Of a stretch of 64,000 nucleotides of DNA, positions 4,536 through 58,679 are shown one piece after another. A program made the position numbers and the translations under genes. The stretch comes from an uncultured Holophagales bacterium (GTDB lineage Bacteria; Acidobacteriota; Thermoanaerobaculia; Multivoradales; UBA5704). The notes beneath the pieces were generated by a model. That model saw only the letters and a list, made by a program, of their open reading frames with translations. It ran no database searches and was not told the origin of the DNA. The stretch lies in contig CAWJGT010000001.1 in NCBI GenBank assembly GCA_963842525.1, positions 448,001 to 512,000 of the forward strand. Direction: 5' to 3'. Positions within the stretch are counted from its first letter, which is position 1; each line of letters starts with the position of its first letter.

Positions 4536-4971
4536 GCGGAGCATCCAGGCCGACCTGGGGATGATCGCACGCCTCTATGAGGCGCTCGGCGAGACGGATC
4601 TGAAGGGGGCCGAGCCCCAGGAGGTTCTCATCGTCATCGCCTACCGTCTCCACAGCCTCTACTCTGCCTTCGAGAACATCTTCCGCAACATTGCCACGGC
4701 GTTCGAGAACCAGCTCGATCCGGTAGGCTGGGATCGTCAGCTCTTGCAGCGGATGCGGCTGGATCTCCTCCCGATCCGCCCGGCCGTCATCGACGACAAG
4801 GCCTATGGGAGCCTGGACGAAATGCTCCGCTTCCGCCATGTCTTTCTGACCATGTACGGGATCGAGCTCGATGCCTCGCGTCTGCAGGTTGCCCTTCAGA
4901 AAACGCTGGCCCTCAAGCCCCTCTATCAGCCGCAGATCGAGAAGTTCCTGGAGTTCCTGAGAAGCCTTTGA
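4510..4971 (+). CDS. HEPN/HepT-like ribonuclease toxin family protein
   Basis: LHSLYSAFENIFRNIA, W..QLL.RM, LDEMLRFRHVF..MYG motifs; ATG at 4510. Confidence 0.8.
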   Translation: MNERYLVLERSIQADLGMIARLYEALGETDLKGAEPQEVLIVIAYRLHSLYSAFENIFRNIATAFENQLDPVGWDRQLLQRMRLDLLPIRPAVIDDKAYGSLDEMLRFRHVFLTMYGIELDASRLQVALQKTLALKPLYQPQIEKFLEFLRSL

Positions 4972-4993: not shown

Positions 4994-6307
4994 TCAGAGG
5001 ACCCGCCACCATGGCGAACGGGCAATCCATTCATGACGTGAATGATTCGCAAAGCCGAGCGCCTCCAGCGGATGAATCCCGCCGTTGTGCCACAGGGCGT
5101 CCGGGGATTGGAGGTCGCCGGGCGGAGCGCAACGGGAAATGCCGAGGCTGGTCAGCGCCGGCTCCAGGCTCCAGGCGTCGTCTCCGGCCAGAGCGGCTCC
5201 CTGGAGACGGTCCTGCCAGGGTGTGAGCAGGTCTGGCACGCGGGAGATGTCTGGCAGCGGATGGACCCGGACGGTCCGCAGGCCCGGAGTGGGACGGAAT
5301 TGCGGGTCGGTATCTAAGAGGACGGTCCCGGCGGCCAGGGGGAGGCAGGTCGGGCGCTGCCCTCGCATCTCCGCTTCCAGCCGCGCCTGCTGGACGGCGG
5401 CCTGGTCCGCGGGGTCGGGCGGACCGGGCGGCCAGGTTTGGGCCAGGACGCGGAGCTCGTCCTCTAGATAGGTGGCGAGCTCTTCCGCATCTCCAGCCGT
5501 GTAGACCGCCGCCACCGAAAGGCAGCCCCGTTGGTCGAACAGGGCGATGTCACGCGCCAGCCCCGGAGCCACCTGCTCGGGACGTGCCTCTCTCCCGATC
5601 ACGGCCAGGCTGGTCCTGGGGCCGTAGCCGACGACCTTGCCCGGCGCCCGGCGCTCCAGGTCTGCGAGCGCCGGCGCATCGCCGTAGGCGAGCACCGTGC
5701 CGGCACCCGCCAGGACAGGCGCTTCCAGCTCCTCGTTCCCGCCCGGCCAAGCGACGGCGGCGACGGAGCCCGCAAGCCTTGGCTCGCGACGGATCAGAGC
5801 GCGCAGAAAGGCGGGAGCGAACAGCGGCTCCGCCGAGGGGGATTTGAGAAGCACCGGCCGCCGGAGCGCAAGGGCCGGCAGCAGCGGCTGCACTGCCAGC
5901 GCCGGCAGGTTCGCGGCGAGCACCACGAGGACCGGCCCGGCGGGTGCGGAAGGTACGCGCGCTTCGGCCTCGGCCAGCAGGACCGCCGCGGGCTCCTTCC
6001 GCACGCCTCCGAGCACCGCTTCGAGGCCGGCTTGGAGCCCCTCCGTGGAGAGGCGGCAGAGGCGGGCCCACTCGGAATCGAGCGCCTGGCGTTCCGGCGA
6101 GCGGCGGGAGCGGAAGGCCTCGACCGTGCCGGTCCAGGCGGCCAGCAGGTCCGCCGTCGGGATGGCACGGAGAGCCTCCTCCCCCCGCCGGAGCTCGGCC
6201 ACGAGCCGGTCCAGGTCCGCCGGCGTCCACGGACAGGCGAGCCAGTGCAGGCCTTGCCGCGCGCTGGGCGGCGGGAGGCCCGGAGGCAGGTAGGCGTCGC
6301 GCAGCAT
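4994..6307 (-). CDS. LuxC-like acyl-CoA reductase (ALDH fold)
   Basis: LAANLP, LLKSPSAEP, GYGPRTS, DIALFDQRGCLS; ATG 6307 immediately follows the luxE-like stop. Confidence 0.85.
   Translation of the reverse strand: MLRDAYLPPGLPPPSARQGLHWLACPWTPADLDRLVAELRRGEEALRAIPTADLLAAWTGTVEAFRSRRSPERQALDSEWARLCRLSTEGLQAGLEAVLGGVRKEPAAVLLAEAEARVPSAPAGPVLVVLAANLPALAVQPLLPALALRRPVLLKSPSAEPLFAPAFLRALIRREPRLAGSVAAVAWPGGNEELEAPVLAGAGTVLAYGDAPALADLERRAPGKVVGYGPRTSLAVIGREARPEQVAPGLARDIALFDQRGCLSVAAVYTAGDAEELATYLEDELRVLAQTWPPGPPDPADQAAVQQARLEAEMRGQRPTCLPLAAGTVLLDTDPQFRPTPGLRTVRVHPLPDISRVPDLLTPWQDRLQGAALAGDDAWSLEPALTSLGISRCAPPGDLQSPDALWHNGGIHPLEALGFANHSRHEWIARSPWWRVL
5024..5060. repeat. Degenerate direct repeat, copy 2, inside the luxC-like 3' end
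   Basis: Aligns with 4256-4293 with 4 mismatches and 1 indel. Confidence 0.7.
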
Positions 6308-6309
6308 GC

Positions 6310-7380
6310 CTAGCCCGCGCGCAGCTTCTCGACCACCAGGGAGCAGCCGCGCAGCTCGGCCCCGGCGGCGCGGCCGAGGAGGCGGAAGCCGTCCCCTTCG
6401 GCGACCCCCAGGTCTTCGGTCAACAGGTGGACGGCCGAGCCGACGTTCGCTAGGTCGAAGACGGAGATCAGCCCGGTCGTCCCTGGCGGCGCCTCCTCCA
6501 GCGTCTCGGGGTCCAGGATGCGGACCCGCGTCCAGGCCGGGGCCACGAAGAGGTCGAGGTCGCCGCCGAGGAGCACCCGCGTGTAACACTGGCTGGTGAG
6601 CTCGGTCATGCCGTACTCGCGGACCACCTGCTCCGGCGGCACCCCCAGCCGGTCTCCCACCCGCTGCAGCAGCTCGGCGCGGGTCAGCTCGGCGGTGCGC
6701 CCCTTGAAGCCGCCCGTCTCGAACAGGACGGACCCCGCCGGCAGCCGGAAACGGAGGTCCATCCGGTCCAGCCCGTCGAGCCACTGAGCCAGGGCAAAGG
6801 CGGTCGCCAGGACTAGGACGGGCCGGCCCTCGCGCTGGCGGGACCCGGTCCAGGAGCGGGCGCGCGCCGTCTCCACCCCGCGCGGTCCGAACGCCGTGGC
6901 GCTCTCCGGCGAGCCCCAGCGGGTGAGGATGTGGTCCACCATGAAGGAGAGGCTGGAGTCGGGGAGCTGCTCGCGGGTCGGGATCAGCGACAGGACCGGC
7001 AGGCGGGCCGCGGGGCCGAACAGCGGCAGGCAGAAAGGTGGGAACGAGGAGTCGATCACCTGCCGGTAGAGGTCCGGATAGGGATGGTGATGGACGCTCT
7101 GGGTCTCTCCGCCCCCTCCACTCCCTGAAGTCGTGCCGCTGCTGCGGAAGACCTCGACGGCTGGCGCCGTAGCCAGCTCCAGGCTCTTGAAGGCGGCGGA
7201 CGGCACCGGCGGCACCTGCCGCCAGTCCGTGACCGTGTCCGGGGTGACCCCACGTCCCAGGCAGAGGCGGCCGAAGGGCTCGATCCGCTCGAATTGGAAG
7301 GCGAACGCCCCAAGCGCCAGCTCCTCGAACGAGCCGTTCCGCGGATCGGTCACATAGCGGGAGATCCGGTCGACGATCAC
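6310..7380 (-). CDS. LuxE-like acyl-protein synthetase
   Basis: FRSSGTT, ETGGFKGR, EYGMTELTSQ, LGRAAGAELRGCS. Confidence 0.9.
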   Translation of the reverse strand: MIVDRISRYVTDPRNGSFEELALGAFAFQFERIEPFGRLCLGRGVTPDTVTDWRQVPPVPSAAFKSLELATAPAVEVFRSSGTTSGSGGGGETQSVHHHPYPDLYRQVIDSSFPPFCLPLFGPAARLPVLSLIPTREQLPDSSLSFMVDHILTRWGSPESATAFGPRGVETARARSWTGSRQREGRPVLVLATAFALAQWLDGLDRMDLRFRLPAGSVLFETGGFKGRTAELTRAELLQRVGDRLGVPPEQVVREYGMTELTSQCYTRVLLGGDLDLFVAPAWTRVRILDPETLEEAPPGTTGLISVFDLANVGSAVHLLTEDLGVAEGDGFRLLGRAAGAELRGCSLVVEKLRAG

Positions 7381-7453
7381 GGCCGGATTCTGTCACGGCC
7401 CCGGGACGTCCGCCGCCGGTTTTCTGCTACAGTACGGCCCGGAGGCCGGTCCT

Positions 7454-7828
7454 ATGCCCGAAGCGTTTCCTTATCCGAAGAAGATCGAGGTCGACAAGCC
7501 GCCGCGTGCCAAGGCGCCCAAGCAGTTGGCGGTGATCGACCAGACGGGCTGCACGGGCTGCGAGGCCTGCATTTCCTTCTGCCCGGTCGACTGCATCGAG
7601 ATCGTGCCAGGGCCCGAGTTCCGCGACTTCATGAAGCTCGTCGAGGTCGACCTGGAGCGGTGCATCGGCTGTCAGCTCTGCGCCCGCTACTGCCCCTGGG
7701 AGACGATCGATATGTGGGGTTATGAAGAAGGGGTCGCCGTCGCGCCCCAGCTTACGGTGCGCTCCCTGATCTACGACTACGATCCCGAGACCATGCACGA
7801 GGCGGCGGAGGCGCGGAGTGCCTCCTGA
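7454..7828 (+). CDS. 2x[4Fe-4S] ferredoxin
   Basis: Two CxxCxxCxxxCP motifs (CTGCEACISFCP, CIGCQLCARYCP). Confidence 0.92.
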   Translation: MPEAFPYPKKIEVDKPPRAKAPKQLAVIDQTGCTGCEACISFCPVDCIEIVPGPEFRDFMKLVEVDLERCIGCQLCARYCPWETIDMWGYEEGVAVAPQLTVRSLIYDYDPETMHEAAEARSAS

Positions 7829-13989: not shown

Positions 13990-15339
13990 TTACGGATGCA
14001 ATCCAGGTGACGTCAAAGTCCGTGGCGGCCCGGGCGGGACCTCACCCCCTGTCCCCCTCTCCCATCTCCCTTCCATCCCCCGCCGGGAGAGGGGGGACGT
14101 GGCTGGGGAGTCGGTGGCGAGTCCGATGTCAGAAGATTTCGACGCACCGGGCTCTGGCCTCGTCTCGACCGCATCAACTGCGTTCCCCCTCTCCCGGGGG
14201 TGGACGGGTGGGAGATGGGAGAGGGGGACAGGGGGTGAGGTCTGCTCCGGCTGGCCCTCGGCCGTGGCCTCCCCGGGCTCGACCGGTGCCGCTTCGAGGC
14301 TCTCTGCCTCCACAGCCTCTTCACCCTCCAGGACGATCTCGTCTTCCATCTCTTCGAAGGCGACCTCTTCGTCTCCGGACGGCTCGTCGGCGAAAGGCTC
14401 TAACGTCTCCGGTCCCTCGAAGACCAGGACCTGGCCGGCCTGGATCTCGTCGGGCTCCGGGGCGAAGCCCTCGCCGGCGATCTCCTGGGTGAGCTCGGTT
14501 TCCTCCTCGACGAAGTCCCAATTCTGGACCGGCCCCGAGTCCAGCTCGCCCGAGAAGACGAAGCCGACGCTCTCGTCGGTATAGATCTCCTCGACCGTAT
14601 CGTCGGCCTGGACCCAGTCCGCCTGCGCCGTCGGATTCGCGGCACGCGTGCCGTACCACTCGCCCCGGATGGTGTCGCTGAGCACCGAGGATTCGAGGTA
14701 GTCGTCGAGAGTGAGCGGCGCCTGGGCGATGCTCTGCGCCTGCACGATGAGCTGGCCGAGCTGCGCGGCGGTCGTCTTATCTCCTGTTGCAGCGGCGTGA
14801 TCGCGGAGGGGCTCCAGCCGGCCGGCCAGGCGGGCCTGCTCGGCACGCATCCGCTCGAACCGCCGCCGCTCCTCGTCGTTGAGCGGCTTGCCGGTGCGGA
14901 AGCGCACCCATTCCGGGCCATAGCGGTTCCTGAGCTGCCGGTAGGCGGCCGAGAGCGTCCGCATCTCCTGGTCCATCTGATCCATGCGGGGGTCGCGGTC
15001 GCCGATCCGCGCCCAGACCGTCCCGAGCTGCGCCAGCGCCACGCTGCCGGACCGCAGGGCCCGGAAGAACGACAGGTCCCGCCGTGTCAGCGAGGTGCCC
15101 ACGTCGAAGAGGGACGCCTGCATCCGGTCCATCGACATCCAGAAGGCGCCGCCGCGAGGGTCGCGCCGGTCGAGCTTGCCATGGGCCGCCCGGGCGGTCT
15201 GTGACCAGGCCCGCTCCGCAATCCGGACCAGCTTCCTCGCATTGACCCGAGGAGCCTTTTGCGCGCCGGCAGCGGGCGTCAGGCCCACGGCGAGCAGGCA
15301 CAGGCAGCACAGGATGCGCGAAGCTCTCGAACGGAACAT
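13990..15339 (-). CDS. Secreted hypothetical protein with acidic tail; C-terminus reads through a palindromic repeat
   Basis: Signal peptide MFRSRASRILCCLCLLAVGLTPAAGA; E-rich region; residues near the C-terminus are encoded by repeat 14040-14240. Confidence 0.75.
   Translation of the reverse strand: MFRSRASRILCCLCLLAVGLTPAAGAQKAPRVNARKLVRIAERAWSQTARAAHGKLDRRDPRGGAFWMSMDRMQASLFDVGTSLTRRDLSFFRALRSGSVALAQLGTVWARIGDRDPRMDQMDQEMRTLSAAYRQLRNRYGPEWVRFRTGKPLNDEERRRFERMRAEQARLAGRLEPLRDHAAATGDKTTAAQLGQLIVQAQSIAQAPLTLDDYLESSVLSDTIRGEWYGTRAANPTAQADWVQADDTVEEIYTDESVGFVFSGELDSGPVQNWDFVEEETELTQEIAGEGFAPEPDEIQAGQVLVFEGPETLEPFADEPSGDEEVAFEEMEDEIVLEGEEAVEAESLEAAPVEPGEATAEGQPEQTSPPVPLSHLPPVHPRERGNAVDAVETRPEPGASKSSDIGLATDSPATSPLSRRGMEGRWERGTGGEVPPGPPRTLTSPGLHP
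14040..14240. repeat. ~200-nt palindromic MITE/REP-like element (full copy)
   Basis: 31-nt terminal inverted repeat cctcaccccctgtccccctctcccatctccc; interior similar to the reverse complement of the 38556 and 58307 copies. Confidence 0.9.
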
Positions 15340-16627: not shown

Positions 16628-16730
16628 GCGCCACCTCCAGGGTCCAGGATAGACCCCGTTTTGGGAAATCTCAAGCGGCTCAAGGACTTGCCGCAGGGCT
16701 CCGTCAACGTCGGTGGTGGCTTGGGCGTGA

Positions 16731-16925
16731 CCTCACCCCCTGTCCCCCTCTCCCATCTCCCTCCCTTCCCCCGGGAGAGGGGGAACGTCGCTGAGGCGGT
16801 ATGCGCGAGTCCCTGGCAAACCTATCTGTGGAATGTTCGCCTCGACCTCGCCTCGAACGCTCCGCCTGCGTCCCCCCTCTCCCGGTCGGGGGGAGGGAGA
16901 TGGGAGAGGGGGACAGGGGGTGAGG
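16731..16925. repeat. Palindromic MITE/REP-like element (full copy)
   Basis: Same 31-nt terminal inverted repeats, downstream of the metH stop. Confidence 0.9.
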
Positions 16926-35177: not shown

Positions 35178-35700
35178 GGGTTTTCTCCTTGGTTGAAGCC
35201 TCGGAGCCTCTCCTAAGGCAAAGCGGATGCCATATCGCAGGATGCTTGAAAACAAAAGAGTTACCGGGATGGAGCGTGCGCGCGGGGGTGGCTGTTGTCT
35301 CCTGGAAAGGACGGTTTGACCTCCGCGCGCATCTGGACTGCTAGGCTCCCGCGCCCGGCAGCCGTAACAGACCTGGGAAGGGCATACGCGCTAACTTTGC
35401 TCTGGGTGTGGAGGGAGCCGCCGACCGCTGAAGCGGGCGGGCGCGATCCTCGACAGCCGCTTCCCGAAACCATCCTCCTGACCGTCTGAAATGCTGGGGA
35501 GACCCGTCCTCTGAGCTGGGGGAGCGGGCTCTGAGTTGGGGGAGGCCCGCCCCAGACAGACACGGGGCGCCGGCTCTGAGTTGGGGGTGAGCCCCCCTGC
35601 CTGGGGGAGCGTTCCCCCAGGCCAGATGCGCTCCCCCCCAACCCGGCCGTGTGCTGTCCCTGCGGTGTGGCCTTTCGACTCAGGTAGAATTCCTTCATCC

Positions 35701-38464
35701 ATGCCTGGAGCCAAGACCTTCGACGTCTTTCTCAGCCACAACAGCAAGGACAAGACCGCCGTCCTCGAGCTGGCGGAGTCACTGCGGCGCCGGAAGCTGA
35801 AGGTCTGGTTGGACGTGTGGGAGCTGCGGCCTGGGCAGCTCTGGCAGAAGGCCCTGGAAGCGGCCATCGCGAGCATCCGTTCGGCCGCCATCCTCGTTGG
35901 GAAGGACGGTCTGGGTCCCTGGGAAGACCAGGAGATGGATGCATTTCTGCGGAGGTTCGTGAAACGCACTGCCGACAGCGTCATTCCCGTTCTGCTGCCC
36001 GGCGCCCCGGAAAGGGTCGAGCTGCCACTGTTCCTTGAAGGCTTCACCTGGGTCGACCTCAGAGAGGGCCTGATTCCCGCGAAGCTGGACACATTGGTCT
36101 GGGGGATCACCGGCCGCAAACCAAAGCCGCTCCGCGTTGGTCTTCCTCCCCCCTCTCCCGGTGGACGGGGGGGCGATGGGAGAGGGGGGGCAGGGGGGTG
36201 AGGATCCCGACCTCGCCGCCTACCGGGCCTGGGCACTGGACCGCTATCGCGGCCTGAGCCTGATCGGCCTCGGGGCGGCCGACGTCCGGATGCGTTTCGA
36301 GGTGGTCTACGTACCGCTGCGGATCGCCCGCCGGCCGGGCCGCTTCGAGATGGAAGTCGAGACCGGAAAGCGGCCCGGCCGCGGCCTGGGAGCGGCGGGC
36401 TCCGACGAGATCGAGATCGAAGAGATCTTCGCGACCGGCGTGCCGCACTCGCTGGTTCTTGGCCACCCGGGAGCCGGCAAGACGACGTCGCTCCTGAAGC
36501 TCCTCCACCTCTGTCTCGCCGAGGGTCCGAAGCCTCGGAGCTTGGCAGAGGGCACCGTGCCGGTTCTCCTCCGGCTGCGGCACCTCACCGCCGCGGACCT
36601 TGACCGCCCGCTGGCCGATTTCGCCGAGCGCGAGCTGGCCGAGACTTCCGGCGGCGCTCTGCCGGCCGGACTCGGCACCCGCCTATGGGACCGGGGGCGC
36701 CTGCTCCTGCTGCTCGATGGGTTGGACGAGATCGCGGACGAGGCGCTACGCACCCGCGTCTGCGGCTTTCTGGACTTCGCGCTCACCGGCGCCGAGCGGC
36801 GGCACATTCGTGCCATTCTCTCTTGCCGCTTCGCAGGCTATGGGGGGAGGTCCGGTTCGGCGAGCATCCAGGAGTACCTGACGGCGCTCCACATCGCCAG
36901 CCAGGGGGCCGAGTTGCTCGGCGAGCCGTGCGCCCGCTGCGGCGACGAGTGGTGGCACGAAGTCCTGTTGCTGGTGGTGGGGCTGCCAGGCCGGCGGCTC
37001 TTCGGTCCCTTGATGGAGCGGCTGCTCGCCGTGACGGACCTCCCGCAGCGGGAAGACCTGCTGCGCGCCTGCCTCGACGAGGCCGCGGAGGTGGACCTCG
37101 AACCTTTGCTGTCCCGGCTCGTTCCGGAAGAGCCACCGCAGCGTCTGGCCGTGGTATTGCGTCTCCTGCGCGGCCGCTCTGATCCGCGGCTCTTGGAACG
37201 GGTCACACCGCTCATCGAAAGCACGGACGCCGGGGTGGCTGCACTCGCGCGACAGATCGCCGCCGAGCTGAGCCGGCCGGCGGCGGTGGCCAGGCCGGTC
37301 TGCGACCTCTTCGTCGTCCACCACCCGGCCGATGGGGAGAGCGCCTTCGAGTTGGTGCGGGTCCTGCGCCGGGCGGGGCGGCACGTCCTCGTGGCCGGGG
37401 AGGACCCGCTCTCGGAAAACATCGCGGAAGGAACCACTGCTGTGGCCGTGTTGGCCGGCCCGAGCGGTCGTCCACCCTGGGAAGTGAAGGACCTCTACCG
37501 GACCCTTCGCCTCTTCACCCGGCGCCGGAGGCCCCTCGTGCCGGTGCGGCTGCCGGGTGCCGGAACGTTCCCTGCGCCGCCGGGTGACCTCCCGGCTCTG
37601 GACTGGGTCGATCTCCGCCAGGGGTTGGCGCGAGCGGCCGAGGCGTTGGAGCTCGCCCTGGAAAAGAAGCCGGCCATCTTGACGGCACCACCGGCCGGCC
37701 AGCCTTCGGCCGAGCCCGGCCGCACCTGGATCGAGCCGGTCACCGGTATTCGTTTCCTCTGGATTCCGGGTGGGCGGTTCCAGATGGGAGGAAACCGGTT
37801 CCCCGACGAACAGCCTGTTCACTGGGTTCGGGTCTCCCCCTTCTGGCTGGGGGAGACGCCGGTGACCAACCAGCAGTATGCGCTGTTTCTCGATCAGACC
37901 CGCTATCGAGAGCCCGATTTCTGGCGGGACCGGCGCTTCTCCGCCCCGGAGCAGCCGGTGGTCGGCGTGAGCTGGGAGGACGCAGAGGTTTTTTGCGCGT
38001 GGCTCGCGCGCGTTTCTGGCAAGGCCGTGGTCCTGCCCAGCGAGGCGCAGTGGGAATTCGCAGCACGGGGGCCGGACGCACGGGAGTATCCCTGGGGCAA
38101 CGCCGCGCCGGGTGAGACACTGGCCTGTTTCGATCTCGACTTTGAGAAAGGTCAGCCAGCGCCGGTCGGCTCATACCCGGAGGGCCGGGGGCCTTTTGGC
38201 ACGCTGGACCAGGCAGGCAACGTCTGGGAGTGGTGCCTGGACGTTTGGGACGAGAAGGCATATCAGAAGCGCGCAAAGGGAAGGGAGCCCTTGGATCCAG
38301 TGGTCAGTGGCGAAGGGGAAGGGCGGGTGCTTCGGGGCGGCGGCTGTTTCAGCCCCGCGGAGAATCTGCGGGCCGCTTACCGCGACGGGTCCCGCGCCAG
38401 GTTCCGGGACGACGATGTCGGCTTCCGCGTCGCCGCCGCGCCCGCGAGCACCTTGAAGCCTTGA
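35701..38464 (+). CDS. TIR-NACHT-TIR-FGE(C-type lectin) protein, DGR target; frameshift at ~36195 and apparent internal deletion at ~36860
   Basis: TIR (FDVFLSHNSKDK..WLD..PWEDQEM), Walker A GHPGAGKTT, Walker B LLLLDGLDE, degenerate TIR (DLFVVHH..PLVPVRLP..WVDLR), FGE (F.MG, PVTNQQY, PVVGVSW, LPSEAQWE.AAR, GNVWEW, RGG, GFRV). Confidence 0.85.
36148..36203. repeat. Half palindromic element inside the TIR-NACHT linker
   Basis: cccccctctcccggtggacggggggcgatgggagagggggggcaggggggtgagg. Confidence 0.8.
38330..38449 (+). other. DGR variable region + IMH, copy 1
   Basis: Differs from 38801-38920(-) at 18/120 nt, 17 of them at codon positions 1-2; no synonymous changes. Confidence 0.85.
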
Positions 38465-38480
38465 TTCTTGTTTTGGGGGT

Positions 38481-38499
38481 CCAGGGGCGGAGCCCCTGG
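38481..38499 (+). other. DGR-type GC hairpin downstream of IMH, copy 1
   Basis: CCAGGGGC-GGA-GCCCCTGG. Confidence 0.8.
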
Positions 38500-38555
38500 T
38501 CGCTGCACGACCGGGAGAGAGGGTCTTCCGAGAGAGGGGTAGAGGCGGCTTGGGT

Positions 38556-38752
38556 CCTCACCCCCTGTCCCCCTCTCCCATCTCCCACCCTTCCACCCCC
38601 GGGAGAGGGGGGACGCGGTTGATGCACCTGAAGCGAGGCCGGAGCTCGCTTCGGGCGTGTTGACATCGGGCTCGCCGCGGAGGCGCCAGCTACGTCCCCC
38701 CTCTCCCGGCGGGGGGTGGAAGGGAGATGGGAGAGGGGGACAGGGGGTGAGG
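38556..38752. repeat. Palindromic MITE/REP-like element (full copy)
   Basis: 31-nt terminal inverted repeats; preceded by GGGGTAGAGGCGGCTTGGGT. Confidence 0.9.
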
Positions 38753-38753
38753 A

Positions 38754-38772
38754 CCAGGGGCTCCGCCCCTGG
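38754..38772 (-). other. DGR-type GC hairpin, copy 2
   Basis: Reverse complement is CCAGGGGC-GGA-GCCCCTGG. Confidence 0.8.
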
Positions 38773-38794
38773 ACCCCAAACAAAACCCAAAGAA

Positions 38795-39235
38795 TCAAGG
38801 GCTCGCGGGCGCGGCGGCGACGCGGAAGCCGACAAGGTCGCTCCGGTCCCAGGCGTGGCTCCCGAAGCGGAAAGCGGCCCGCAGATTCCCCGCGGGGAGG
38901 ACCCAGCCGCCGCCCCGAAGCGGCCGTATCGCGTCATCTGCTTTTGTCAGTCCAAGGTCATCCTTGCACCACTCCCAGACGTTGCCTGCCAGATCGCAGT
39001 GACCGGACCAGCCATTTCCTGCCGGATAGATTCCCACCGGCGTCGGGCGGCCTACAGTACCGTCGAAATTCGCATGCTCAGGATCGGGTTCTTCCGCGCC
39101 CCAGGGGTACTCGCCCACCACCGGAGCCGCCGCCTTCTCCCATTCGGCCTCGGTGGGGAGGCGCAGCGGCATTCCTTTCTGCTCGCTCAGCCAGCGGCAA
39201 TAGGCGTCCGCCTCATACCAGGAGACCTCGGTCAC
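38795..39235 (-). pseudogene. 5'-truncated FGE-sulfatase/C-type-lectin DGR target gene
   Basis: Begins mid-domain (VTEVSWYEADAYC), LPTEAEWE, GNVWEW, GFRVAAAPAS; joined upstream to a broken hairpin. Confidence 0.85.
38801..38920 (-). other. DGR variable region + IMH, copy 2
   Basis: LRGGGWVLPAGNLRAAFRFGSHAWDRSDLVGFRVAAAPAS; 28 of 40 codons identical to copy 1. Confidence 0.85.
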
Positions 39236-39237
39236 CG

Positions 39238-39312
39238 CGCCCCTGGACCCCAGACGAAAGCCAAAAAAATCAAAGAATCAAGGGCTCGCGGGCGCGGCGG
39301 CGACGCGGAAGC
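39238..39312 (-). repeat. Third IMH/stop/partial-hairpin remnant
   Basis: gcttccgcgtcgccgccgcgcccgcgagcccttgattctttg...ggggtccagggcg; the VR proper is missing. Confidence 0.8.
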
Positions 39313-39742
39313 GGCAAGAAAACCGTCTTCGACCTTGAGGATGGGGCGGTCGCCGTCGATCCCGTCGACCATGGCGAGGGCGAGGCGGGCGAAGGCGTTC
39401 CAGGCAAAGCGGTCGGTGAAGCCTTCCTTCTCCCGCAGCGCGGTCCGCGAGGCGATCAGCCATTTGATGACTGCCCTGTAGACGCGCGACCGCCCTTCCG
39501 GCAGGTGGCCCTCGTTCCAATGCACCACGCAGAGGCAGGTGAGCATCACCGGGTTGGTGGCGAGCCGGCGGACCCGCGGCAGGTCGCAGATCGCGGAGAC
39601 CAGGTCCGCCCGGTAGCGTTCGGCCTCGCCGCGCAGGGCTTGCGGGTCTTCCGCCGCATGGAGGCCCGCAACCCAGTGATCGAGGAAGGTACGGATCTCA
39701 GCTTCCCCGAAAGGATCGATGACGGCGGTGTGAAACCCCATC
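39313..39742 (-). pseudogene. NACHT helical-domain fragment
   Basis: IDPFGEAEIRTFLDHW, LATNPVMLTCLC, LPEGRSRVY, LALAM. Confidence 0.8.
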
Positions 39743-39856
39743 CGCGTCCTGCCAGTGGGAAGCAGCCATGAACTCTTCGTGGCCGACTGTGACGTAGCTC
39801 TCGATTTTCGCAACGGCATCGAGAATATGCCGCAGGTAAGGCTCGTCTCGGCTCAC
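39743..39856 (-). pseudogene. Truncated HepT/DUF86 toxin
   Basis: GTG overlaps the MNT stop; reads MSRDEPYLRHILDAVAKIESYVTVGHEEFMAASHWQDA, then joins the NACHT fragment. Confidence 0.8.
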
Positions 39857-40140
39857 AGCGGGACGGCTTCAGAGAGAACTTGCTGCCGCAGGTAGGGGGA
39901 CAGGGATTGCTCCGTGACGACGTCCACCGGACGATGAACGAGATCCTCCAGATCCTGCTTCAGTCCAATCAGGTCAAGGAGCGAGCGTTCGTGCCCAAGA
40001 GTCACGAGCAGATCGAGGTCGCTGCCCTCGCGGCCTTCGCCCCTGGCCAGGGAGCCGAACACGCGCACATTGCTGGCCCCATGGCGCTTTGCCAGATCAA
40101 GGATTTTCGCGCGGTAGTCCCGGAGAAGAAAGGCACTCAT
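39853..40140 (-). CDS. MNT (MntA-like) nucleotidyltransferase antitoxin
   Basis: VRVFGSLARGE...SDLDLLV, LEDL....VDVVT. Confidence 0.93.
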   Translation of the reverse strand: MSAFLLRDYRAKILDLAKRHGASNVRVFGSLARGEGREGSDLDLLVTLGHERSLLDLIGLKQDLEDLVHRPVDVVTEQSLSPYLRQQVLSEAVPL

Positions 40141-40235: not shown

Positions 40236-41762
40236 TCACTCCCTTTCCGGCCGGATCCGCACGAGCTGCGCGTTCGAGTCGACGCCGTCCTTGGTGACGA
40301 CCCAGACGAGGGCGCAGCCGTCGTGGAGGCCGCTGGTGGGGAGGGTGGCGGTGATCTGCTGGGGCGATTCCTGCCAGCGGGGGTCGCCCTTGGCGCGCAG
40401 CTCGACGAGGACGTTCGGGTCGTCGCGGTTCCGGTCGTGGGCCTGTAGGACCAGGACCCTGTTGCCGCGGCGGCCGAACCCCTCGCCGGAGACCGTGACC
40501 GGACCACCCGGATGAAGGAAGAGGCTCCCGGCCTCGGGGGTGTCGACGACTCCCTGGGGCCCGATCGAGGGGCAGCCGGGGGGCAGGGTCGCCGGCTGGC
40601 CGCGGAGGAGAGACTGCAGGACCGATCCCGAGAGCGTCATCTCGGCGGTGCGGCCACGGAAGAGGCCGTAGAGGAGCCAGTCGATCTGGCCTTCAGGGTC
40701 TCCCTCGTCCCGGAGATCCCCCACGCACGGCGTGCGCCGCCCACCGCGCCAGCCGTTGTCCAGCGCCTGCCAATGGATGACATAGGAGACCTGGAAGGCG
40801 CCGGGGTCCTCCAGGGCGAGGACCAGCTCCCGCACGTAGCGCGCCGCCAGGCACTCGCTGTAGATGGAGCGGGCGAAGCCGAGCTCCCCGAGGATGAAGT
40901 TCTCCTCCCCGACGTCCCGCCGGCGGCGGCGGACCTGCTGCAGAGCAAAACCGAGGTCGTTCTTCAGTGTCTTCGCCAGGCTCGCCTCCGGCCGCTCGCG
41001 TTTCACGTTGAGGCTCTGCCAGGCGGAATAGGAGTAGTAGTCCACGCTGACCCGCGGCGCCACGGTGTCAATGATGCAGAGCACCTCGCCGTCGCCGCAA
41101 CGCACGCCGTCGCGCTCGACGAGGTTGAACTCCAGCCCGGAGTAGAGCTGGGCCGAGCTGCCGGGCCGGCGGGCGCGGGCTTCCCGGACCCCCTGGGCCC
41201 GCGCTTCGGTGCGGCTGATGAATTCGTCCCATTCCGGCGAGCCCGGAGGCTCCGGCCCCACCGCGTTGTCGCCTTCCCAGTTGAGGAGGATGAAGGTCTT
41301 GCCCGCATAGGCCGGCTCGCCGAGGAGGTGCTCACCCAGCCGGGCGATCTGGCGCCGCACCGCCGCGAAGCCGTTCGGCTCATTGCTCGAGATGGACACG
41401 GTGATCAGGTAAGTGCGGAAACGCGGGTCGCCGAAGAGGGCGTCGTAGGCCGGGCTGGCGGCGATCCGTTGCAGGTACCGGTCGCCGGACGCGTTGATCG
41501 GCGGGTTCACCTGGTAGGAATCCGCCGGGCCCATGTAGATGCGGATGGTCCGGCTGCCGATCGCGGCCACCTTGTCGGCGCCCCAGGCGAGGCGGTTCGG
41601 CACGCCGGGCCAGGCGGAGATGTCGGCGCTCCAGTGATAGACGCCGAAGCGGTCGGCCCGCGCCGTGGGCGGGTCCGGCACGGCTCGGGCCGCAGCGGCG
41701 CCCAGGGCCAGGAGGGGGAGGGTGAGGAGCACGGGGAGGATCGAGGGCGAGCGGACAGGCAT
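40236..41762 (-). CDS. Secreted protein, possible clan GH-A-like barrel + Ig-like domain (paralog 1)
   Basis: Signal peptide; ILLNWEGDN, DYYSYSAW, ILGELG; highly similar to the 41808-43379 protein. Confidence 0.75.
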   Translation of the reverse strand: MPVRSPSILPVLLTLPLLALGAAAARAVPDPPTARADRFGVYHWSADISAWPGVPNRLAWGADKVAAIGSRTIRIYMGPADSYQVNPPINASGDRYLQRIAASPAYDALFGDPRFRTYLITVSISSNEPNGFAAVRRQIARLGEHLLGEPAYAGKTFILLNWEGDNAVGPEPPGSPEWDEFISRTEARAQGVREARARRPGSSAQLYSGLEFNLVERDGVRCGDGEVLCIIDTVAPRVSVDYYSYSAWQSLNVKRERPEASLAKTLKNDLGFALQQVRRRRRDVGEENFILGELGFARSIYSECLAARYVRELVLALEDPGAFQVSYVIHWQALDNGWRGGRRTPCVGDLRDEGDPEGQIDWLLYGLFRGRTAEMTLSGSVLQSLLRGQPATLPPGCPSIGPQGVVDTPEAGSLFLHPGGPVTVSGEGFGRRGNRVLVLQAHDRNRDDPNVLVELRAKGDPRWQESPQQITATLPTSGLHDGCALVWVVTKDGVDSNAQLVRIRPERE

Positions 41763-41807: not shown

Positions 41808-43379
41808 TCAGTGCCCGGGCGGTGCCGGGCGAATACGGACGAGGAGGGCGTTGGACTCGATCTTGTCGTCGCGAGAGACCCAGACCAGGGCACAGCCGTC
41901 GCGGGGGTCGTTCGCGGGAAGGGTGGCTTTGATCTGCTGCGGCGACTCGAACCACAAGGGATCCGACGCTGACTTCTCGAGGTCGTGGATCACGTTGGCA
42001 ATGGGCGGCCGGATGCTCCGGCGATCGTGACCTCGGAGGATCAGCACGTGATTGCCTTGGGGTCCGAAGTTGTCACCGGAGAGGGTGAGGGGACCGCCCG
42101 CTTGGAAGAGCGGCTCACCTTCCGGGGCAACGATCCTCGGGCATTTCTGCGGCACGGTTGCCGGCTGGCCGCGGAGCAGGTCGCGCAGGACCTTGCCCAA
42201 GACGGTCATCCCGGCGTCGCGCCCGCGGAAAAGGCCGTAGAACAGCCAATCGACGGAGCCTTCCCCCGCACAGGGCGTGCGCTTCCCGGTGCGCCAGCGG
42301 TTGTCCAGCAACTGCCAGAAGATGGCGTAGGAGAGGCGGAACGCGCCGGGAGCGTCGAGGGCCTCCGCGACCTCGCGGAGGTAGTCCGCCGCCAGGCACT
42401 CGCCGAACTGCGAGCGGGCGAAACCGAATTCGCCGAGGAGGAAGCTCTTTTCCTCCACGTCGGGCCGCCGGCTCCGCACCTTGGCCAGCGCGAAGCGGAG
42501 ATCGCTGTCGAATTTCTCCTTCAAGCTGCCTGGCGGCTCGTCGAGCTTCACGTTGAGGGTCTGCCAGGAAGAGTAGGAATAATAGTCGACCGTGACCCGT
42601 GGCGCGACGGAATCGATCACGCAGCGTACCTGCCCGTCGCCGCAGCGCACGCCGTCGCGCTCGACGAGGTTGAACTCAAGCCCTGAGTAGAGCTGAGCAG
42701 AGCTGTTGGGACGGCGGGAGCGGGCGAGCCGGACGCCGTCGGCCCGCGACTGGATCCAACGAGTGAAGCCCTCCGTCGCTGTCGCTGGCGGGGCTGGGGT
42801 TGGGCCGGGGGCTGGGCGCAGGGCGTTGTCCCCTTCCCAGTTCAGGAGGATGAAGGTCTTGCCCGCGTAGGCCGCCCGTGTGAGCAGGTATTCGCCGAGC
42901 CGCAGGATCTGGGTCTTCGAATCCCGGTACTCGGTCGAGCTGAAACCGTCCTGCCAGCCGCCTCCTTGCTCGACCGGGGCGTAGGTGTAGACGGTGAGCA
43001 GGTAGGTACGGAAGCGGGGATCCCGGAAGAGGGCGTCGTATTCCGGGCTGGCGGCGATCCGCCGCAGGTACAGGTCGTCTTTCGGGTTCGTTTTCGGGTT
43101 CGCTCCGTAGGAGTCGGACGGTCCCAGGTAGACGCGGATCGTCCGGCTGCCGATCTCTGCCACCTTGTCGGCGCCCCAGCGCAGGAGCTTCGGCTGGCAC
43201 GAGGGCGGGGCGCCCAGCGGGCACGGCGCGGCAGTGTCGTCGGCGGCCCAGTGATAGATCCCGAAGCGGTCCGTCCGCAGCGCCGGCGGAGCGGGGACGG
43301 CCTGAGCCGGAACGGCGATCAAGCCGCTCAGAAGCACCGCCGGCAGGGCCGGCAGGATCGCCGAGGACCAGCGAGACAT
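41808..43379 (-). CDS. Secreted protein, possible clan GH-A-like barrel + Ig-like domain (paralog 2)
   Basis: Signal peptide; ILLNWEGDN, DYYSYSSW, LLGEFG. Confidence 0.75.
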   Translation of the reverse strand: MSRWSSAILPALPAVLLSGLIAVPAQAVPAPPALRTDRFGIYHWAADDTAAPCPLGAPPSCQPKLLRWGADKVAEIGSRTIRVYLGPSDSYGANPKTNPKDDLYLRRIAASPEYDALFRDPRFRTYLLTVYTYAPVEQGGGWQDGFSSTEYRDSKTQILRLGEYLLTRAAYAGKTFILLNWEGDNALRPAPGPTPAPPATATEGFTRWIQSRADGVRLARSRRPNSSAQLYSGLEFNLVERDGVRCGDGQVRCVIDSVAPRVTVDYYSYSSWQTLNVKLDEPPGSLKEKFDSDLRFALAKVRSRRPDVEEKSFLLGEFGFARSQFGECLAADYLREVAEALDAPGAFRLSYAIFWQLLDNRWRTGKRTPCAGEGSVDWLFYGLFRGRDAGMTVLGKVLRDLLRGQPATVPQKCPRIVAPEGEPLFQAGGPLTLSGDNFGPQGNHVLILRGHDRRSIRPPIANVIHDLEKSASDPLWFESPQQIKATLPANDPRDGCALVWVSRDDKIESNALLVRIRPAPPGH

Positions 43380-57516: not shown

Positions 57517-57629
57517 GGCTGGAAGGGAGTCTATCGCAGGCGGTCTCCTGTCCCTGAGAGCGCCGGCGTCTCGCCGGCCCACGAGATTGCGCGCAACGAG
57601 GAGGCCGAGGGGGTAGAGGTGGCTTGAGT

Positions 57630-57686
57630 CCTCACCCCCTGTCCCCCTCTCCCATCTCCCTTCCACCCCCCGCCGGGAGAGGGGGG
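57630..57686. repeat. Palindromic element, left half
   Basis: 31-nt arm plus hairpin; preceded by GGGGTAGAGGTGGCTTGAGT. Confidence 0.85.
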
Positions 57687-57729
57687 ACGCGGCTGAGGCG
57701 TCTGTGGCGAGAGCTGTTGTCGAACGCCG

Positions 57730-58084: not shown

Positions 58085-58293
58085 CGAAGGAGATCTCGCC
58101 TGCCAAGTTTCACCTACTGGCGCGCTCGCGAATTGCGAAAGGCGATGACGCCTGCCGAGGAGAAGCTTGCTGCCGCGGATACACAGTGCTTCGCTTTTCA
58201 AACCGGGAACTCTTCGAGCAACCCGAGGAGGTTCTCGATCGGATTGTCGAGGTGGTCGCGGAGATTGCACGCAACAAGGAGGCGGCGGGGTAG
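58085..58293 (+). pseudogene. DUF559/Vsr-like endonuclease remnant (internal deletion)
   Basis: RELRKAMTPAEEKL joined out of frame to RGYTVLRFSNRELFEQPEEVLDRIVEVV...*; the middle of the domain is missing. Confidence 0.75.
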
Positions 58294-58306
58294 AGGCGGC
58301 TTGAGT

Positions 58307-58506
58307 CCTCACCCCCTGTCCCCCTCTCCCATCTCCCACCCGCCCATCCCCGGGAGAGGGGGGACGCAGTTGGTGCATCCGAGACGAGGCCGGAGCCCTG
58401 TGCCTCGGGGCGTGTGATCTCGGGCTCGCCACGGACGCCTCAGCTACGTCCCCCCTCTCCCGGCGGGGGGTGGAAGGGAGATGGGAGAGGGGGACAGGGG
58501 GTGAGG
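58307..58506. repeat. Palindromic MITE/REP-like element (full copy)
   Basis: 31-nt terminal inverted repeats; interior similar to the 38556 copy. Confidence 0.9.
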
Positions 58507-58679
58507 ACACGGCTCCGCCCCGCCCCTCCGGAGCCGGAAAGCCCTCCTGCCGTATGGATGCAGAGTCATCCGACAAGCATCCAGCGCCATCTGTATAGGT
58601 ACAGACTCACCCGATAGGCATACAGATCGCTCTGGATCGATCCCTATAGGGCCAGGAGGCGGGGTTACAATCCGCCGCC

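What the first reader, a model, noticed from the sequence alone, without database searches (positions are those of the whole stretch)
38330..38920. Two convergent DGR variable regions with an adenine-mutagenesis signature and no retroelement in the window
Seen: the 3' blocks of two FGE/C-type-lectin genes (38330-38449 +, 38801-38920 -) share 28/40 identical codons, while sequence just upstream is clearly diverged. The 12 differing codons are TGT/TGG, TTC/GTC, AGC/CTC, GAG/GGG, TAC/TTC, GAC/TTC, TCC/AGC, CGC/CAC, AGG/TGG, TTC/GAC, GAC/AGC and GAT/CTT. That is 18 mismatches, 17 at positions 1-2, none synonymous, which is the reverse of ordinary paralog drift. The last 11 codons are invariant (IMH-like). 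Both copies are followed by CCAGGGGC-GGA-GCCCCTGG. Established: DGRs randomise template adenines (AAC->NNC) in CLec-fold C-termini and use an IMH plus a GC hairpin. Inference: both are remote targets of one template encoding roughly RGGGWNNPAxNLRAANRNxNHARNRNDNVGFRVAAAPAS.
Basis: partly seen in the sequence, partly recalled or inferred. Interest (0 to 1): 0.9.

Follow-up and report, generated by a model that had tools for sequence, protein, structure and literature searches.

The report
DGR target pair missing its template
Two facing, partly broken immune-sensor-like genes carry the clear marks of a mutagenic retroelement (a DGR) that in a related genome sits between the same two genes, but is missing here; this is a known kind of system caught in decay.

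Summary
Window 38330-38449(+) and 38801-38920(-) differ at 18 of 120 bases, 17 of them at codon positions 1-2. The last 33 bases are identical, and an identical 8-bp GC hairpin follows each block.

The DGR reading is right. In a same-order genome (G192), a homologous locus has the same two convergent NACHT-FGE/CLec genes and the same hairpins. Between them lie an HTH gene, an Avd-like ORF, a template repeat and a reverse transcriptase. That template has adenine at 16 of the 18 window-variable sites, against 8 of 102 invariant sites.

The "remote targets" reading is not supported. In the window only 254 bases separate the hairpins, and most of them are a genome-wide palindromic repeat. No cognate template exists in the 9.95-Mb assembly. 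The only DGR there (contig C3) has a different template and a frameshifted RT.

Both window genes are structurally damaged. Three more template-less VR families occur elsewhere in this genome.

Verdict: a hollowed-out, recently orphaned DGR locus. It is a new member of a known kind and of moderate interest.

The parts
35536..36201 (+). TIR-domain ORF (221 aa). It is the detached N-terminal effector part of the left target gene.
   Evidence: PF13676 TIR_2, E = 7.5e-23. 55% identical to the TIR part of the 1184-aa ortholog in L056. It lies in a different frame from gene 1.
36147..36209 (.). Partial copy of the genome-wide repeat in the TIR-NACHT linker. It coincides with the frame break.
   Evidence: window 36147-36209 matches repeat copies in L054 and L055. 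The linker is about 61 nt longer than in L056.
36137..38464 (+). Left target gene (gene 1, 775 aa): truncated NACHT, an internal TIR-like region and FGE-sulfatase/CLec. It lacks about 190 residues relative to its ortholog.
   Evidence: Pfam: FGE-sulfatase 1.7e-50; NACHT profile positions 4-96 of 167 only; residues 12-238 align to L056 225-455 and residues 244-775 to L056 653-1184. Closest G192 gene is target 1 (44%). PDB: FGE enzymes, and TvpA 2y3c at 1.8e-10.
38330..38449 (+). VR1, with the invariant IMH-like end at 38417-38449.
38481..38499 (+). Target hairpin 1 (8-bp GC stem, loop GGA). It starts 16 nt after the stop codon and 31 nt after the VR block.
   Evidence: The same hairpin follows homologous VRs in G020, G037, G126, G142 and G192, but not their TRs.
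38536..38754 (.). Copy of a palindromic repeat of about 220 nt. It fills the space between the hairpins where the G192 locus holds HTH, Avd-like ORF, TR and RT.
   Evidence: 940 blastn HSPs in the genome. The best other copy is C1:506287-506508 (89.7%).
38754..38772 (-). Target hairpin 2, identical to hairpin 1.
   Evidence: z = -3.4.
38801..38920 (-). VR2, with the invariant end at 38801-38833.
38795..39235 (-). FGE/CLec fragment of the right target gene (gene 2, 146-aa ORF).
   Evidence: Pfam FGE-sulfatase profile positions 93-254 only. 78% identical to residues 1020-1164 of the intact 1164-aa Metallophos-NACHT-FGE ortholog in L054. Closest G192 gene is target 2 (54%).
39238..39312 (-). Internal duplicate of the gene's own 3' end: invariant end, stop codon, UTR and the left half of the hairpin. 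It ends in the hairpin loop.
39311..39359 (+). Inverted 49-nt piece of the same gene.
   Evidence: matches L054 6520-6472 in inverted orientation (89.8%). Junctions are shown.
39366..39746 (-). NACHT fragment of the right target gene. About 788 nt are missing between it and the FGE fragment, and the first ~611 codons are absent.
   Evidence: 92% nucleotide identity to L054 6530-6911; 84% amino-acid identity to L054 residues 612-758.

Best explanation
The window holds a hollowed-out DGR locus. Two convergent NLR-like genes (effector domain, NACHT NTPase, FGE/CLec sensor) were the two flanking targets of one diversity-generating retroelement.

Inferred mechanism, by homology to G192 and to the BPP-1 model:
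- A cassette (HTH gene, Avd-like gene, template repeat, reverse transcriptase) lay between the two genes.
- Its RT copied the template RNA with errors at adenines.
- The cDNA replaced the last ~120 nt of each gene, guided by the invariant 3' end and by the GC hairpin downstream of each target.
- This made the two blocks identical at non-adenine sites and randomised about 17 adenine sites, mostly AAC-type codons.

The cassette is now gone. Only 254 nt, mostly a palindromic repeat, separate the two hairpins, and both target genes have since been damaged. The VRs are therefore frozen relics of recent DGR activity, not remote targets of a live template in this genome.

Shown: the VR footprint, the hairpins, the absence of a cognate TR from the assembly, the homologous intact locus, and the gene damage.
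Inferred: that a cassette once sat here and was deleted, and that no diversification happens now.
For: 1. Footprint. There are 18 differences in 120 nt, 17 at codon positions 1-2, and at most one difference at a non-adenine site, next to flanks that are only 54% identical. Adenine is confined to variable sites (11/36 against 8/204).

2. Homologous template. G192's TR has A at 16 of the 18 window-variable sites against 8 of 102 invariant sites (Fisher p = 3e-12). G142's TR has 13 of 18 against 11 of 102. G192's own TR/VR pairs differ at 13 and 19 places, all at TR adenines.

3. Architecture. In G192 (L097) the order is: target 1 (SIR2-NACHT-FGE, +), VR, hairpin 4870-4888, HTH_17 ORF, bAvd-like ORF, TR 6061-6180, RT 6309-7313 (RVT_1 3.8e-11), hairpin 7449-7467, VR, target 2 (-). 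That is 2560 nt between hairpins, against 254 nt in the window.

4. Same locus type. Window gene 1 is closest to G192 target 1 (44% against 37% to target 2). The gene 2 fragments are closest to target 2 (54% and 52%, against 45%).

5. No cognate TR or RT in the genome.
- blastn (word size 7) of both VRs finds only the three window copies and one spurious 49-nt hit.
- tblastn with G192's RT and HTH finds only the C3 DGR at 40%.
- The C3 TR aligns poorly to the window VRs and has a different 3' end.

6. Gene damage.

7. A decay series in relatives.
- G142 has a TR but a degraded RT.
- G002 and G024 have convergent VR pairs flanking only an RT fragment.
- G020, G037 and G126 have a VR plus hairpin, a single copy where self-searched (G020 and G037), and no DGR-type RT hit.
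- Two more convergent template-less VR pairs lie in this genome with only REP/IS200-like elements between them.
Against: - The VRs look fresh. Only one of 103 non-adenine sites differs between VR1 and VR2, although the closest ortholog (L054) is already 8% diverged in its NACHT part. The template was therefore present until recently and might still exist.
- The assembly is a 34-contig draft, 96.4% complete. A cassette on unassembled or unbinned DNA cannot be excluded.
- A soil metagenome (X2) holds two short contigs over 38366-38445. They differ from the window at 38402, 38403, 38408, 38412, 38414 and 38415, and 5 of these 6 are VR1/VR2 variable sites. This fits continuing diversification in related populations, though it rests on depth 2-3 and Logan contigs only.
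- No remnant of the cassette is left between the hairpins, so the deletion is inferred from homology and not seen directly.
- Gene 1 still has an open 775-codon frame.
- Single frameshifts in this assembly are unreliable evidence of decay. Of about 7 RND-pump genes, 2 are split over two frames, and a third cluster is ambiguous.
Confidence: 0.68

Rival explanations
1. The two VRs are still being diversified. The cognate template and RT exist in this organism but lie on DNA missing from the draft assembly (an unbinned island, plasmid or strain-variable region) and act in trans.
For: - VR1 and VR2 are identical at all but one non-adenine site.
- The assembly is 96.4% complete in 34 contigs.
- Trans action on distant targets is documented (passages of PMC5758913) and is seen in this genome for the C3 DGR, whose remote VR lies about 430 kb away.
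- X2 contigs vary at the same sites.
- Retrohoming needs only the VR end and the hairpin, not an intact gene (PMC3240598).
Against: - In the homologous G192 locus the cassette sits between these very genes, and here that space is empty.
- Four VR families in this genome (10-11 VRs) all lack a template, so four cassettes would have to be missing from about 4% of the genome.
- No second DGR-type RT or Avd was found.
- Relatives show the same loss at intermediate stages.
Confidence: 0.18
2. Assembly artefact: the cassette is present in the real chromosome, but the assembler joined the two similar inverted VR/hairpin arms and dropped what lies between.
For: - The two arms form an imperfect inverted repeat of about 170 nt at 84% identity.
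- The assembly shows apparent indel errors.
Against: - The sequence between the hairpins is a bona fide member of a repeat family, with its own flanks.
- A dropped cassette would normally survive as a separate contig, yet no cognate TR or RT exists anywhere in the 34 contigs.
- Two other convergent pairs in the genome show the same emptiness.
Confidence: 0.04
3. The pattern is not DGR-made. The 3' ends of two paralogs were homogenised by gene conversion, and ligand-contact codons then diverged under diversifying selection.
For: Paralogous convergent genes with a shared 3' end could undergo conversion, and the variable codons lie in the sensor domain.
Against: - This does not predict that the variable sites coincide with adenines of a related template (16 of 18).
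- It does not predict adenine depletion at invariant sites.
- It does not predict a DGR-type hairpin that is conserved at VRs and absent at TRs.
Confidence: 0.03
4. The DGR on contig C3 of the same genome supplies the template or enzyme for the window VRs.
For: It is the only DGR-type RT/Avd in the assembly. It has the same gene order (target, HTH_17, bAvd-like, TR, RT) and it does have a remote target.
Against: - Its TR aligns poorly to the window VRs, and the invariant 3' end differs.
- blastn of its TR finds only its own two VRs.
- Its RT carries a +1 insertion relative to the G050 ortholog, although that could be an assembly error.
Confidence: 0.02

Closest known systems
DGR-diversified STAND/NACHT-CLec 'antigen sensor' loci of Thiohalocapsa PB-PSB1 and clade 5D DGRs (Dore et al. 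2024, PMC10907252; abstract, section 5 and found passages read)
   Same: - Targets combine an N-terminal effector (TIR, metallophosphatase), a NACHT/STAND NTPase and a C-terminal FGE-type CLec domain that bears the VR.
- There are commonly two targets per locus.
- Variable positions fall at codon positions 1-2.
- That genome also has 'degenerate' loci where machinery is missing or pseudogenised.
   Different: - Here the whole cassette, template included, is absent from the locus and from the assembly.
- The targets themselves are broken.
- The lineage is acidobacterial, judging by the record titles of relatives that carry the same 3' end.
- I could not see that paper's supplements, which may list template-less targets.
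Homologous intact DGR locus in unnamed same-order genome G192 (locus L097)
   Same: - The same two convergent target types.
- The same VR block: its TR agrees with the window at 86 of 102 invariant sites.
- The same CCAGGGGC-NNN-GCCCCTGG hairpin after each VR.
   Different: - G192 keeps HTH_17, a bAvd-like ORF, the TR and an RVT_1 RT between the hairpins (2560 nt).
- Target 1 carries SIR2 instead of TIR.
Bordetella phage BPP-1 DGR target recognition: IMH plus hairpin/cruciform (Guo et al. 2011, PMC3240598; abstract and found passages read)
   Same: A GC-rich invariant VR end, and a 7-10 bp GC-rich hairpin 4-34 bp downstream of the VR that is required for retrohoming. Here the stem is 8 bp, 28-31 nt after the VR block.
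   Different: - The loop is 3 nt (GGA; GAA or AGA in relatives) rather than the 4-nt GRNA consensus.
- The host is a cellular chromosome and the target is an intracellular NLR-like protein, not a phage tail fibre.
- Function was not tested here.
Treponema denticola variable protein TvpA (PDB 2y3c), an FGE-type CLec DGR variable protein
   Same: The FGE/CLec domain of gene 1 matches it by sequence (E = 1.8e-10). Query residues 88-231 align to the chain's C-terminal residues 157-294, with the VR at the C-terminal end.
   Different: TvpA is a stand-alone lipoprotein. Here the domain is fused to NACHT and effector domains. The closer PDB matches are true FGE enzymes and a kinase-linked FGE domain.

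Membership tests
DGR variable region (target of a diversity-generating retroelement) | The VR lies at the C-terminal end of a CLec/FGE-fold domain. | tested here: met
   PF03781, E = 1.7e-50 (gene 1) and 1.8e-32 (gene 2 fragment). The VR is the last 40 codons of the domain. TvpA 2y3c match.
DGR variable region (target of a diversity-generating retroelement) | A cognate template repeat in the same genome that differs from the VR only at template adenines. | tested here: not met
   No further copy of the block is in the 9.95-Mb assembly (blastn word size 7; regex with up to 5 substitutions). The C3 TR is unrelated. The assembly is 96.4% complete, so absence from the organism is not proven.
DGR variable region (target of a diversity-generating retroelement) | Variable sites correspond to template adenines (tested with homologous templates from relatives). 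| tested here: met
   G192 TR: A at 16 of 18 variable sites against 8 of 102 invariant sites (p = 3e-12). G142 TR: 13 of 18 against 11 of 102. Internal test: A at 11/36 variable against 8/204 invariant letters.
DGR variable region (target of a diversity-generating retroelement) | An invariant GC-rich 3' end (IMH-like) and a GC-rich hairpin a few to 34 bp downstream, present at the VR but not at the TR. | tested here: met
   33 invariant nt. An 8-bp stem starts 28-31 nt downstream. The hairpin is present after the VRs and absent after the TRs of G192 and G142. The loop is 3 nt against the published 4-nt GRNA consensus (PMC3240598).
DGR variable region (target of a diversity-generating retroelement) | A DGR-type reverse transcriptase (with Avd) in cis or in trans. 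| tested here: not met
   There is none in the window. The only DGR-type RT/Avd in the assembly is on C3, is 40% identical to G192's RT, is paired with another TR and is frameshifted. The homologous G192 locus has one in cis.
DGR variable region (target of a diversity-generating retroelement) | Ongoing hypervariation of the VR within a population. | tested here: inconclusive
   Only Logan contigs of soil metagenomes were available. Two low-depth X2 contigs vary at 5 of the known variable sites plus one adenine. No reads of the source population were available.
Bacterial NLR-like STAND (NACHT) sensor | A complete NACHT NTPase module. | tested here: not met
   Gene 1 matches NACHT profile positions 4-96 of 167 only (28.4 bits) and lacks ortholog residues 456-652. 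Gene 2 keeps only a fragment equal to L054 residues 612-758. The intact orthologs L054 and L056 have full NACHT domains.
Bacterial NLR-like STAND (NACHT) sensor | An N-terminal effector and a C-terminal sensor domain on one polypeptide. | tested here: not met
   TIR is a separate ORF in another frame. Gene 2 lacks its first ~611 codons. The orthologs are TIR-NACHT-FGE (1184 aa) and Metallophos-NACHT-FGE (1164 aa). Anti-phage function is not testable with these tools.

The most novel reading that the evidence does not exclude
The cassette is not simply lost. It could be an excisable, possibly mobile module bounded by the two target hairpins.

What is seen: three convergent target pairs in this one genome (window; C14:203.8-205.1 kb; C3:1675.1-1675.9 kb) each lack exactly what should lie between their 3' ends. 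They carry REP, IS200-like or palindromic repeats there instead. Relatives show partial stages, and all four template-less VR families still look fresh.

On this reading one or more DGR cassettes persist episomally or on unassembled DNA. They would serve 10 or more chromosomal sensor genes in trans, or move between hairpin-flanked docking sites.
Probability: 0.1. Interest if true: 0.75.

Novelty: new member of a known kind. Interest (0 to 1): 0.42.

Why it matters
- **Detection.** DGR surveys start from the reverse transcriptase and the template. A locus like this one, and at least three more VR families in the same genome, would be invisible to them. Comparing VRs with each other, and then with templates from relatives, recovers a fossil record of hypermutation.
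- **Evolution.** The series runs from intact (G192), to degraded RT (G142), to RT fragment only (G002, G024), to empty (this window). It gives a concrete picture of how DGR-diversified NLR-like sensors are gained and abandoned in soil acidobacterial lineages, which bears on the cost and benefit of keeping a hypermutator.
- **Limits.** It does not reveal a new mechanism.

Tried and rejected
- **C3 DGR as the template source.** Rejected: its TR aligns poorly to the window VRs and has a different invariant end.
- **C11:41824-41872 blastn hit (49 nt, 79.6%).** It is an unrelated GC-rich stretch.
- **Hairpin copies in G052 (2).** They sit in another repeat context with no VR upstream.
- **First look at nine relatives' DGR loci with the window VRs.** No TR-like hit. 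Those loci turned out to belong to VR families C and D, with weaker matches to B.
- **G002 locus L034 and G024 locus L076.** No window-type TR.
- **Exact-pattern scans of public collections.**
  - Degenerate invariant-end pattern: 3 metagenome contigs, all VR-type with no TR within the locus; 3 GTDB contigs, also VR-type; 0 viral contigs.
  - N-masked VR patterns: 0 in genome contigs and 0 in viral contigs.
  - TR-type pattern from G192/G142: 0 in viral contigs.
  - Caveat found later: G192's TR ends ...GAAC where VRs have ...GAGC, and related TRs have adenines at sites that are fixed non-A in both window VRs. These exact patterns were therefore biased against templates, and their blanks are weak.
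- **The look-up of sequencing runs.** Only small-share soil-metagenome holders kept as Logan contigs; no RNA holder listed.
- **Read laying.** No record spans the whole stretch, and parts without cover say nothing.
- **The search of earlier findings.** Closed.
- **Supplements.** The supplements of papers could not be seen.
- **Literature.** Four searches found no paper describing template-less VR pairs as such. I read only listings, abstracts and the passages or sections cited.
- **Recalled, not tested.** The DGR RT sequence hallmark (an I/L-G-x-x-x-S-Q motif) is from memory.

Full report
**Observation.** The reverse complement of window 38801-38920 differs from 38330-38449 at 18 of 120 bases: 8 at codon position 1, 9 at position 2 and 1 at position 3. 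The last 33 bases are identical. The 105 aligned codons just upstream are only 48% identical in protein and 54% in DNA, with differences spread 36/47/61 over codon positions. CCAGGGGC-GGA-GCCCCTGG follows both blocks, at 38481-38499 and 38754-38772. It occurs nowhere else in the genome and folds as an 8-bp stem with a 3-nt loop. Adenine makes up 11 of 36 letters at variable sites but 8 of 204 at invariant sites.

There are three small corrections:
- TCC/AGC are both serine.
- The one third-position change (TGT against TGG) hits a Trp codon that is TGG in all aligned relatives and related templates.
- A third copy of the invariant end, UTR and half hairpin lies at 39238-39312.

**The genes.** Gene 1 (36137-38464, +) has a partial NACHT and a strong FGE-sulfatase/CLec domain, and an upstream ORF (35536-36201) has TIR. 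Against the 1184-aa TIR-NACHT-FGE ortholog in L056, gene 1 lacks residues 456-652. Its TIR part is in another frame, beside a 60-nt repeat insertion.

Gene 2 is in pieces. A NACHT fragment (39366-39746) and an FGE fragment (38795-39235) match residues 612-758 and 1020-1164 of an intact 1164-aa Metallophos-NACHT-FGE ortholog in L054. About 788 nt between them are replaced by an inverted 49-nt piece and a 75-nt duplicate of the gene's own 3' end that stops in the hairpin loop. The first ~611 codons are absent.

**Own genome.** No further copy of the VR block or its invariant end exists in the 9.95-Mb, 34-contig assembly. Of the 18 RVT_1 matches, most are multi-copy group-II-intron-like. One, on contig C3, is DGR-type.

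That C3 locus reads TIR/NACHT/FGE target, HTH_17 ORF, bAvd-like ORF, TR, RT. Its TR differs from the adjacent VR at 16 sites (15 at adenines) and from a remote VR at 10 sites (all at adenines) plus one inserted base. However, its TR aligns poorly to the window VRs and has a different 3' end.

The C3 RT has a +1 insertion relative to the G050 ortholog, and its targets run over several frames. Single frameshifts must be read with care here: of about 7 RND-pump genes, 2 are also split over two frames, and a third cluster is ambiguous.

**Relatives settle the nature of the blocks.** An order-wide search of 300 genomes with the VR block found matches in 18, own genome included. G192 and G142 each hold two same-strand copies. 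In each genome one copy is an adenine-rich template.
- G192's TR has A at 16 of the 18 window-variable sites against 8 of 102 invariant sites (Fisher p = 3e-12). G142's has 13 of 18 against 11 of 102.
- G192's TR differs from its own two VRs at 13 and 19 places, all at adenines.

**Architecture.** The G192 locus (L097) reads, in order:
- target 1 (SIR2-NACHT-FGE, +) with its VR;
- hairpin 4870-4888;
- HTH_17 ORF;
- bAvd-like ORF (26 bits, below the Pfam cut-off);
- TR 6061-6180;
- RT 6309-7313 (RVT_1 3.8e-11);
- hairpin 7449-7467;
- the VR of a convergent target 2.

Window gene 1 is closest to G192 target 1, and the gene 2 fragments are closest to target 2. The window is therefore the same two-target convergent locus. 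Where G192 has 2560 nt of cassette between the hairpins, the window has 254 nt, of which 38536-38754 is one copy of a palindromic repeat that gives 940 blastn HSPs in the genome. This is why I read the locus as hollowed out rather than as a pair of remote targets.

**Relic or live?**

For loss:
- The cassette's normal place is empty.
- No second DGR-type RT, Avd or HTH is in the assembly.
- Relatives show intermediate stages. G142 has a degraded RT. G002 and G024 have convergent VR pairs around an RT fragment. G020, G037 and G126 have a VR plus hairpin and no DGR-type RT hit, with a single VR copy where I self-searched (G020 and G037).

Against loss:
- VR1 and VR2 differ at only one non-adenine site, although the nearest ortholog is 8% diverged.
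- The assembly is a draft.
- Two low-depth contigs in soil metagenome X2 differ from the window at six places, five of which are VR1/VR2 variable sites.

I put loss at about 0.7 and a hidden live cassette at about 0.2.

**The window is not alone.** Comparing the 3' ends of all FGE-type genes in the genome (26 ends) showed three more VR families without a template:
- Family B: a convergent pair on C14 with an IS200-like ORF and REPs between, plus a copy on C28.
- Family C: a convergent pair at C3:1675 kb, plus a relative on C24.
- Family D: one copy on C4 and two on C9.

Their mismatches fall 11/8/1, 9/7/0 and 6/9/0 over codon positions, with adenine enriched at variable sites. Family D's cognate VR+TR+RT exists in G113 and G123, with AAC codons at the sites that vary in this genome.

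**Comparison with what is known.** DGR-diversified NACHT/STAND-CLec sensors with TIR or metallophosphatase effectors, two targets per locus and 'degenerate' loci are described for Thiohalocapsa PB-PSB1 and related DGRs (PMC10907252). The role of the invariant end and of a 7-10 bp GC hairpin 4-34 bp downstream is established for BPP-1 (PMC3240598). Remote targets are documented (PMC5758913). The window fits this kind. What is particular is complete loss of the cassette with fresh VRs, in an acidobacterial lineage (taxon from the record titles of relatives), and its recurrence at several loci in one genome.

**Limits.**
- No reads of the source population were available.
- Public-collection pattern scans were biased towards VRs (see Tried and rejected).
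- Supplements of papers were closed.

Noticed in passing
window 38536-38754; also about 14037-14240, 16715-16925, 57610-57711, 58287-58508, and a partial copy at 36147-36209: A palindromic, G/C-rich repeat family of about 200-220 nt gives 940 blastn HSPs across the genome. It is REP- or MITE-like. One copy fills the gap between the two target hairpins, and a partial copy coincides with the frame break between the TIR ORF and gene 1.
   Followed up: partly
window 39238-39366: Complex rearrangement inside gene 2. About 788 nt are deleted. The 49 nt next to the break are inverted. A 75-nt copy of the gene's own 3' end is inserted, with a junction in the hairpin loop and 2-4 nt microhomologies. 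It looks like replication template switching at the cruciform.
   Followed up: partly
G000:C3:956000-962000 (locus L013 3051-8960) and C3:1390965-1391112: A complete-looking DGR: TIR/NACHT/FGE target, HTH_17 ORF, bAvd-like ORF, TR, RT. It has an adjacent VR (15 of 16 mismatches at TR adenines) and a remote VR 430 kb away (10 of 10 at adenines). The RT has a +1 insertion, the targets run over several frames, and the remote VR has an inserted base.
   Followed up: yes
G000:C14:203777-205097, C28:6166-6346, C3:1675113-1675929, C24:129270-129401, C4:104957-105151, C9:1916695-1916889, C9:1920992-1921187: Three further families of FGE-type gene ends carry a DGR footprint and have no template in the assembly. 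Two of them are convergent pairs with only REP or IS200-like (PF01797) sequence between them. Cognate DGRs for family D are in G113 and G123. Relatives of family C flank RT fragments in G002 and G024.
   Followed up: partly
G000:C9:1269086-1272167 and C34:210854-213881: Two RND-pump genes (PF00873) are each split into two adjacent pieces in different frames, while four others are intact. Either the assembly has indel errors at roughly one per 7-10 kb of these genes, or the organism has many pseudogenes.
   Followed up: no
G000: C3, C6, C9, C11, C12, C19, C23, C25, C34 (loci L001-L012): At least 12 full-length copies of group-II-intron-like reverse transcriptases fall into three or four identical-score groups. 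One copy on C1 (132-134 kb) appears split by an insertion.
   Followed up: no
window 39853-40140 (-): An intact 95-aa nucleotidyltransferase (PF01909/PF18765, the MNT type of toxin-antitoxin pairs) directly abuts the truncated 5' end of gene 2. No partner gene was checked.
   Followed up: no
window 40236-41762 and 41808-43379 (-): Two tandem paralogous ORFs of 508 and 523 aa with signal-peptide-like N-termini and no Pfam match.
   Followed up: no
L097 7499-7640 (G192) and L098 1650-2290 (G142): Even in the relatives that keep the cassette there is wear. G192's second VR lacks one base relative to the TR, which puts the gene's last codons out of frame. G142's RT lacks residues 83-191 and runs over two frames.
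   Followed up: partly
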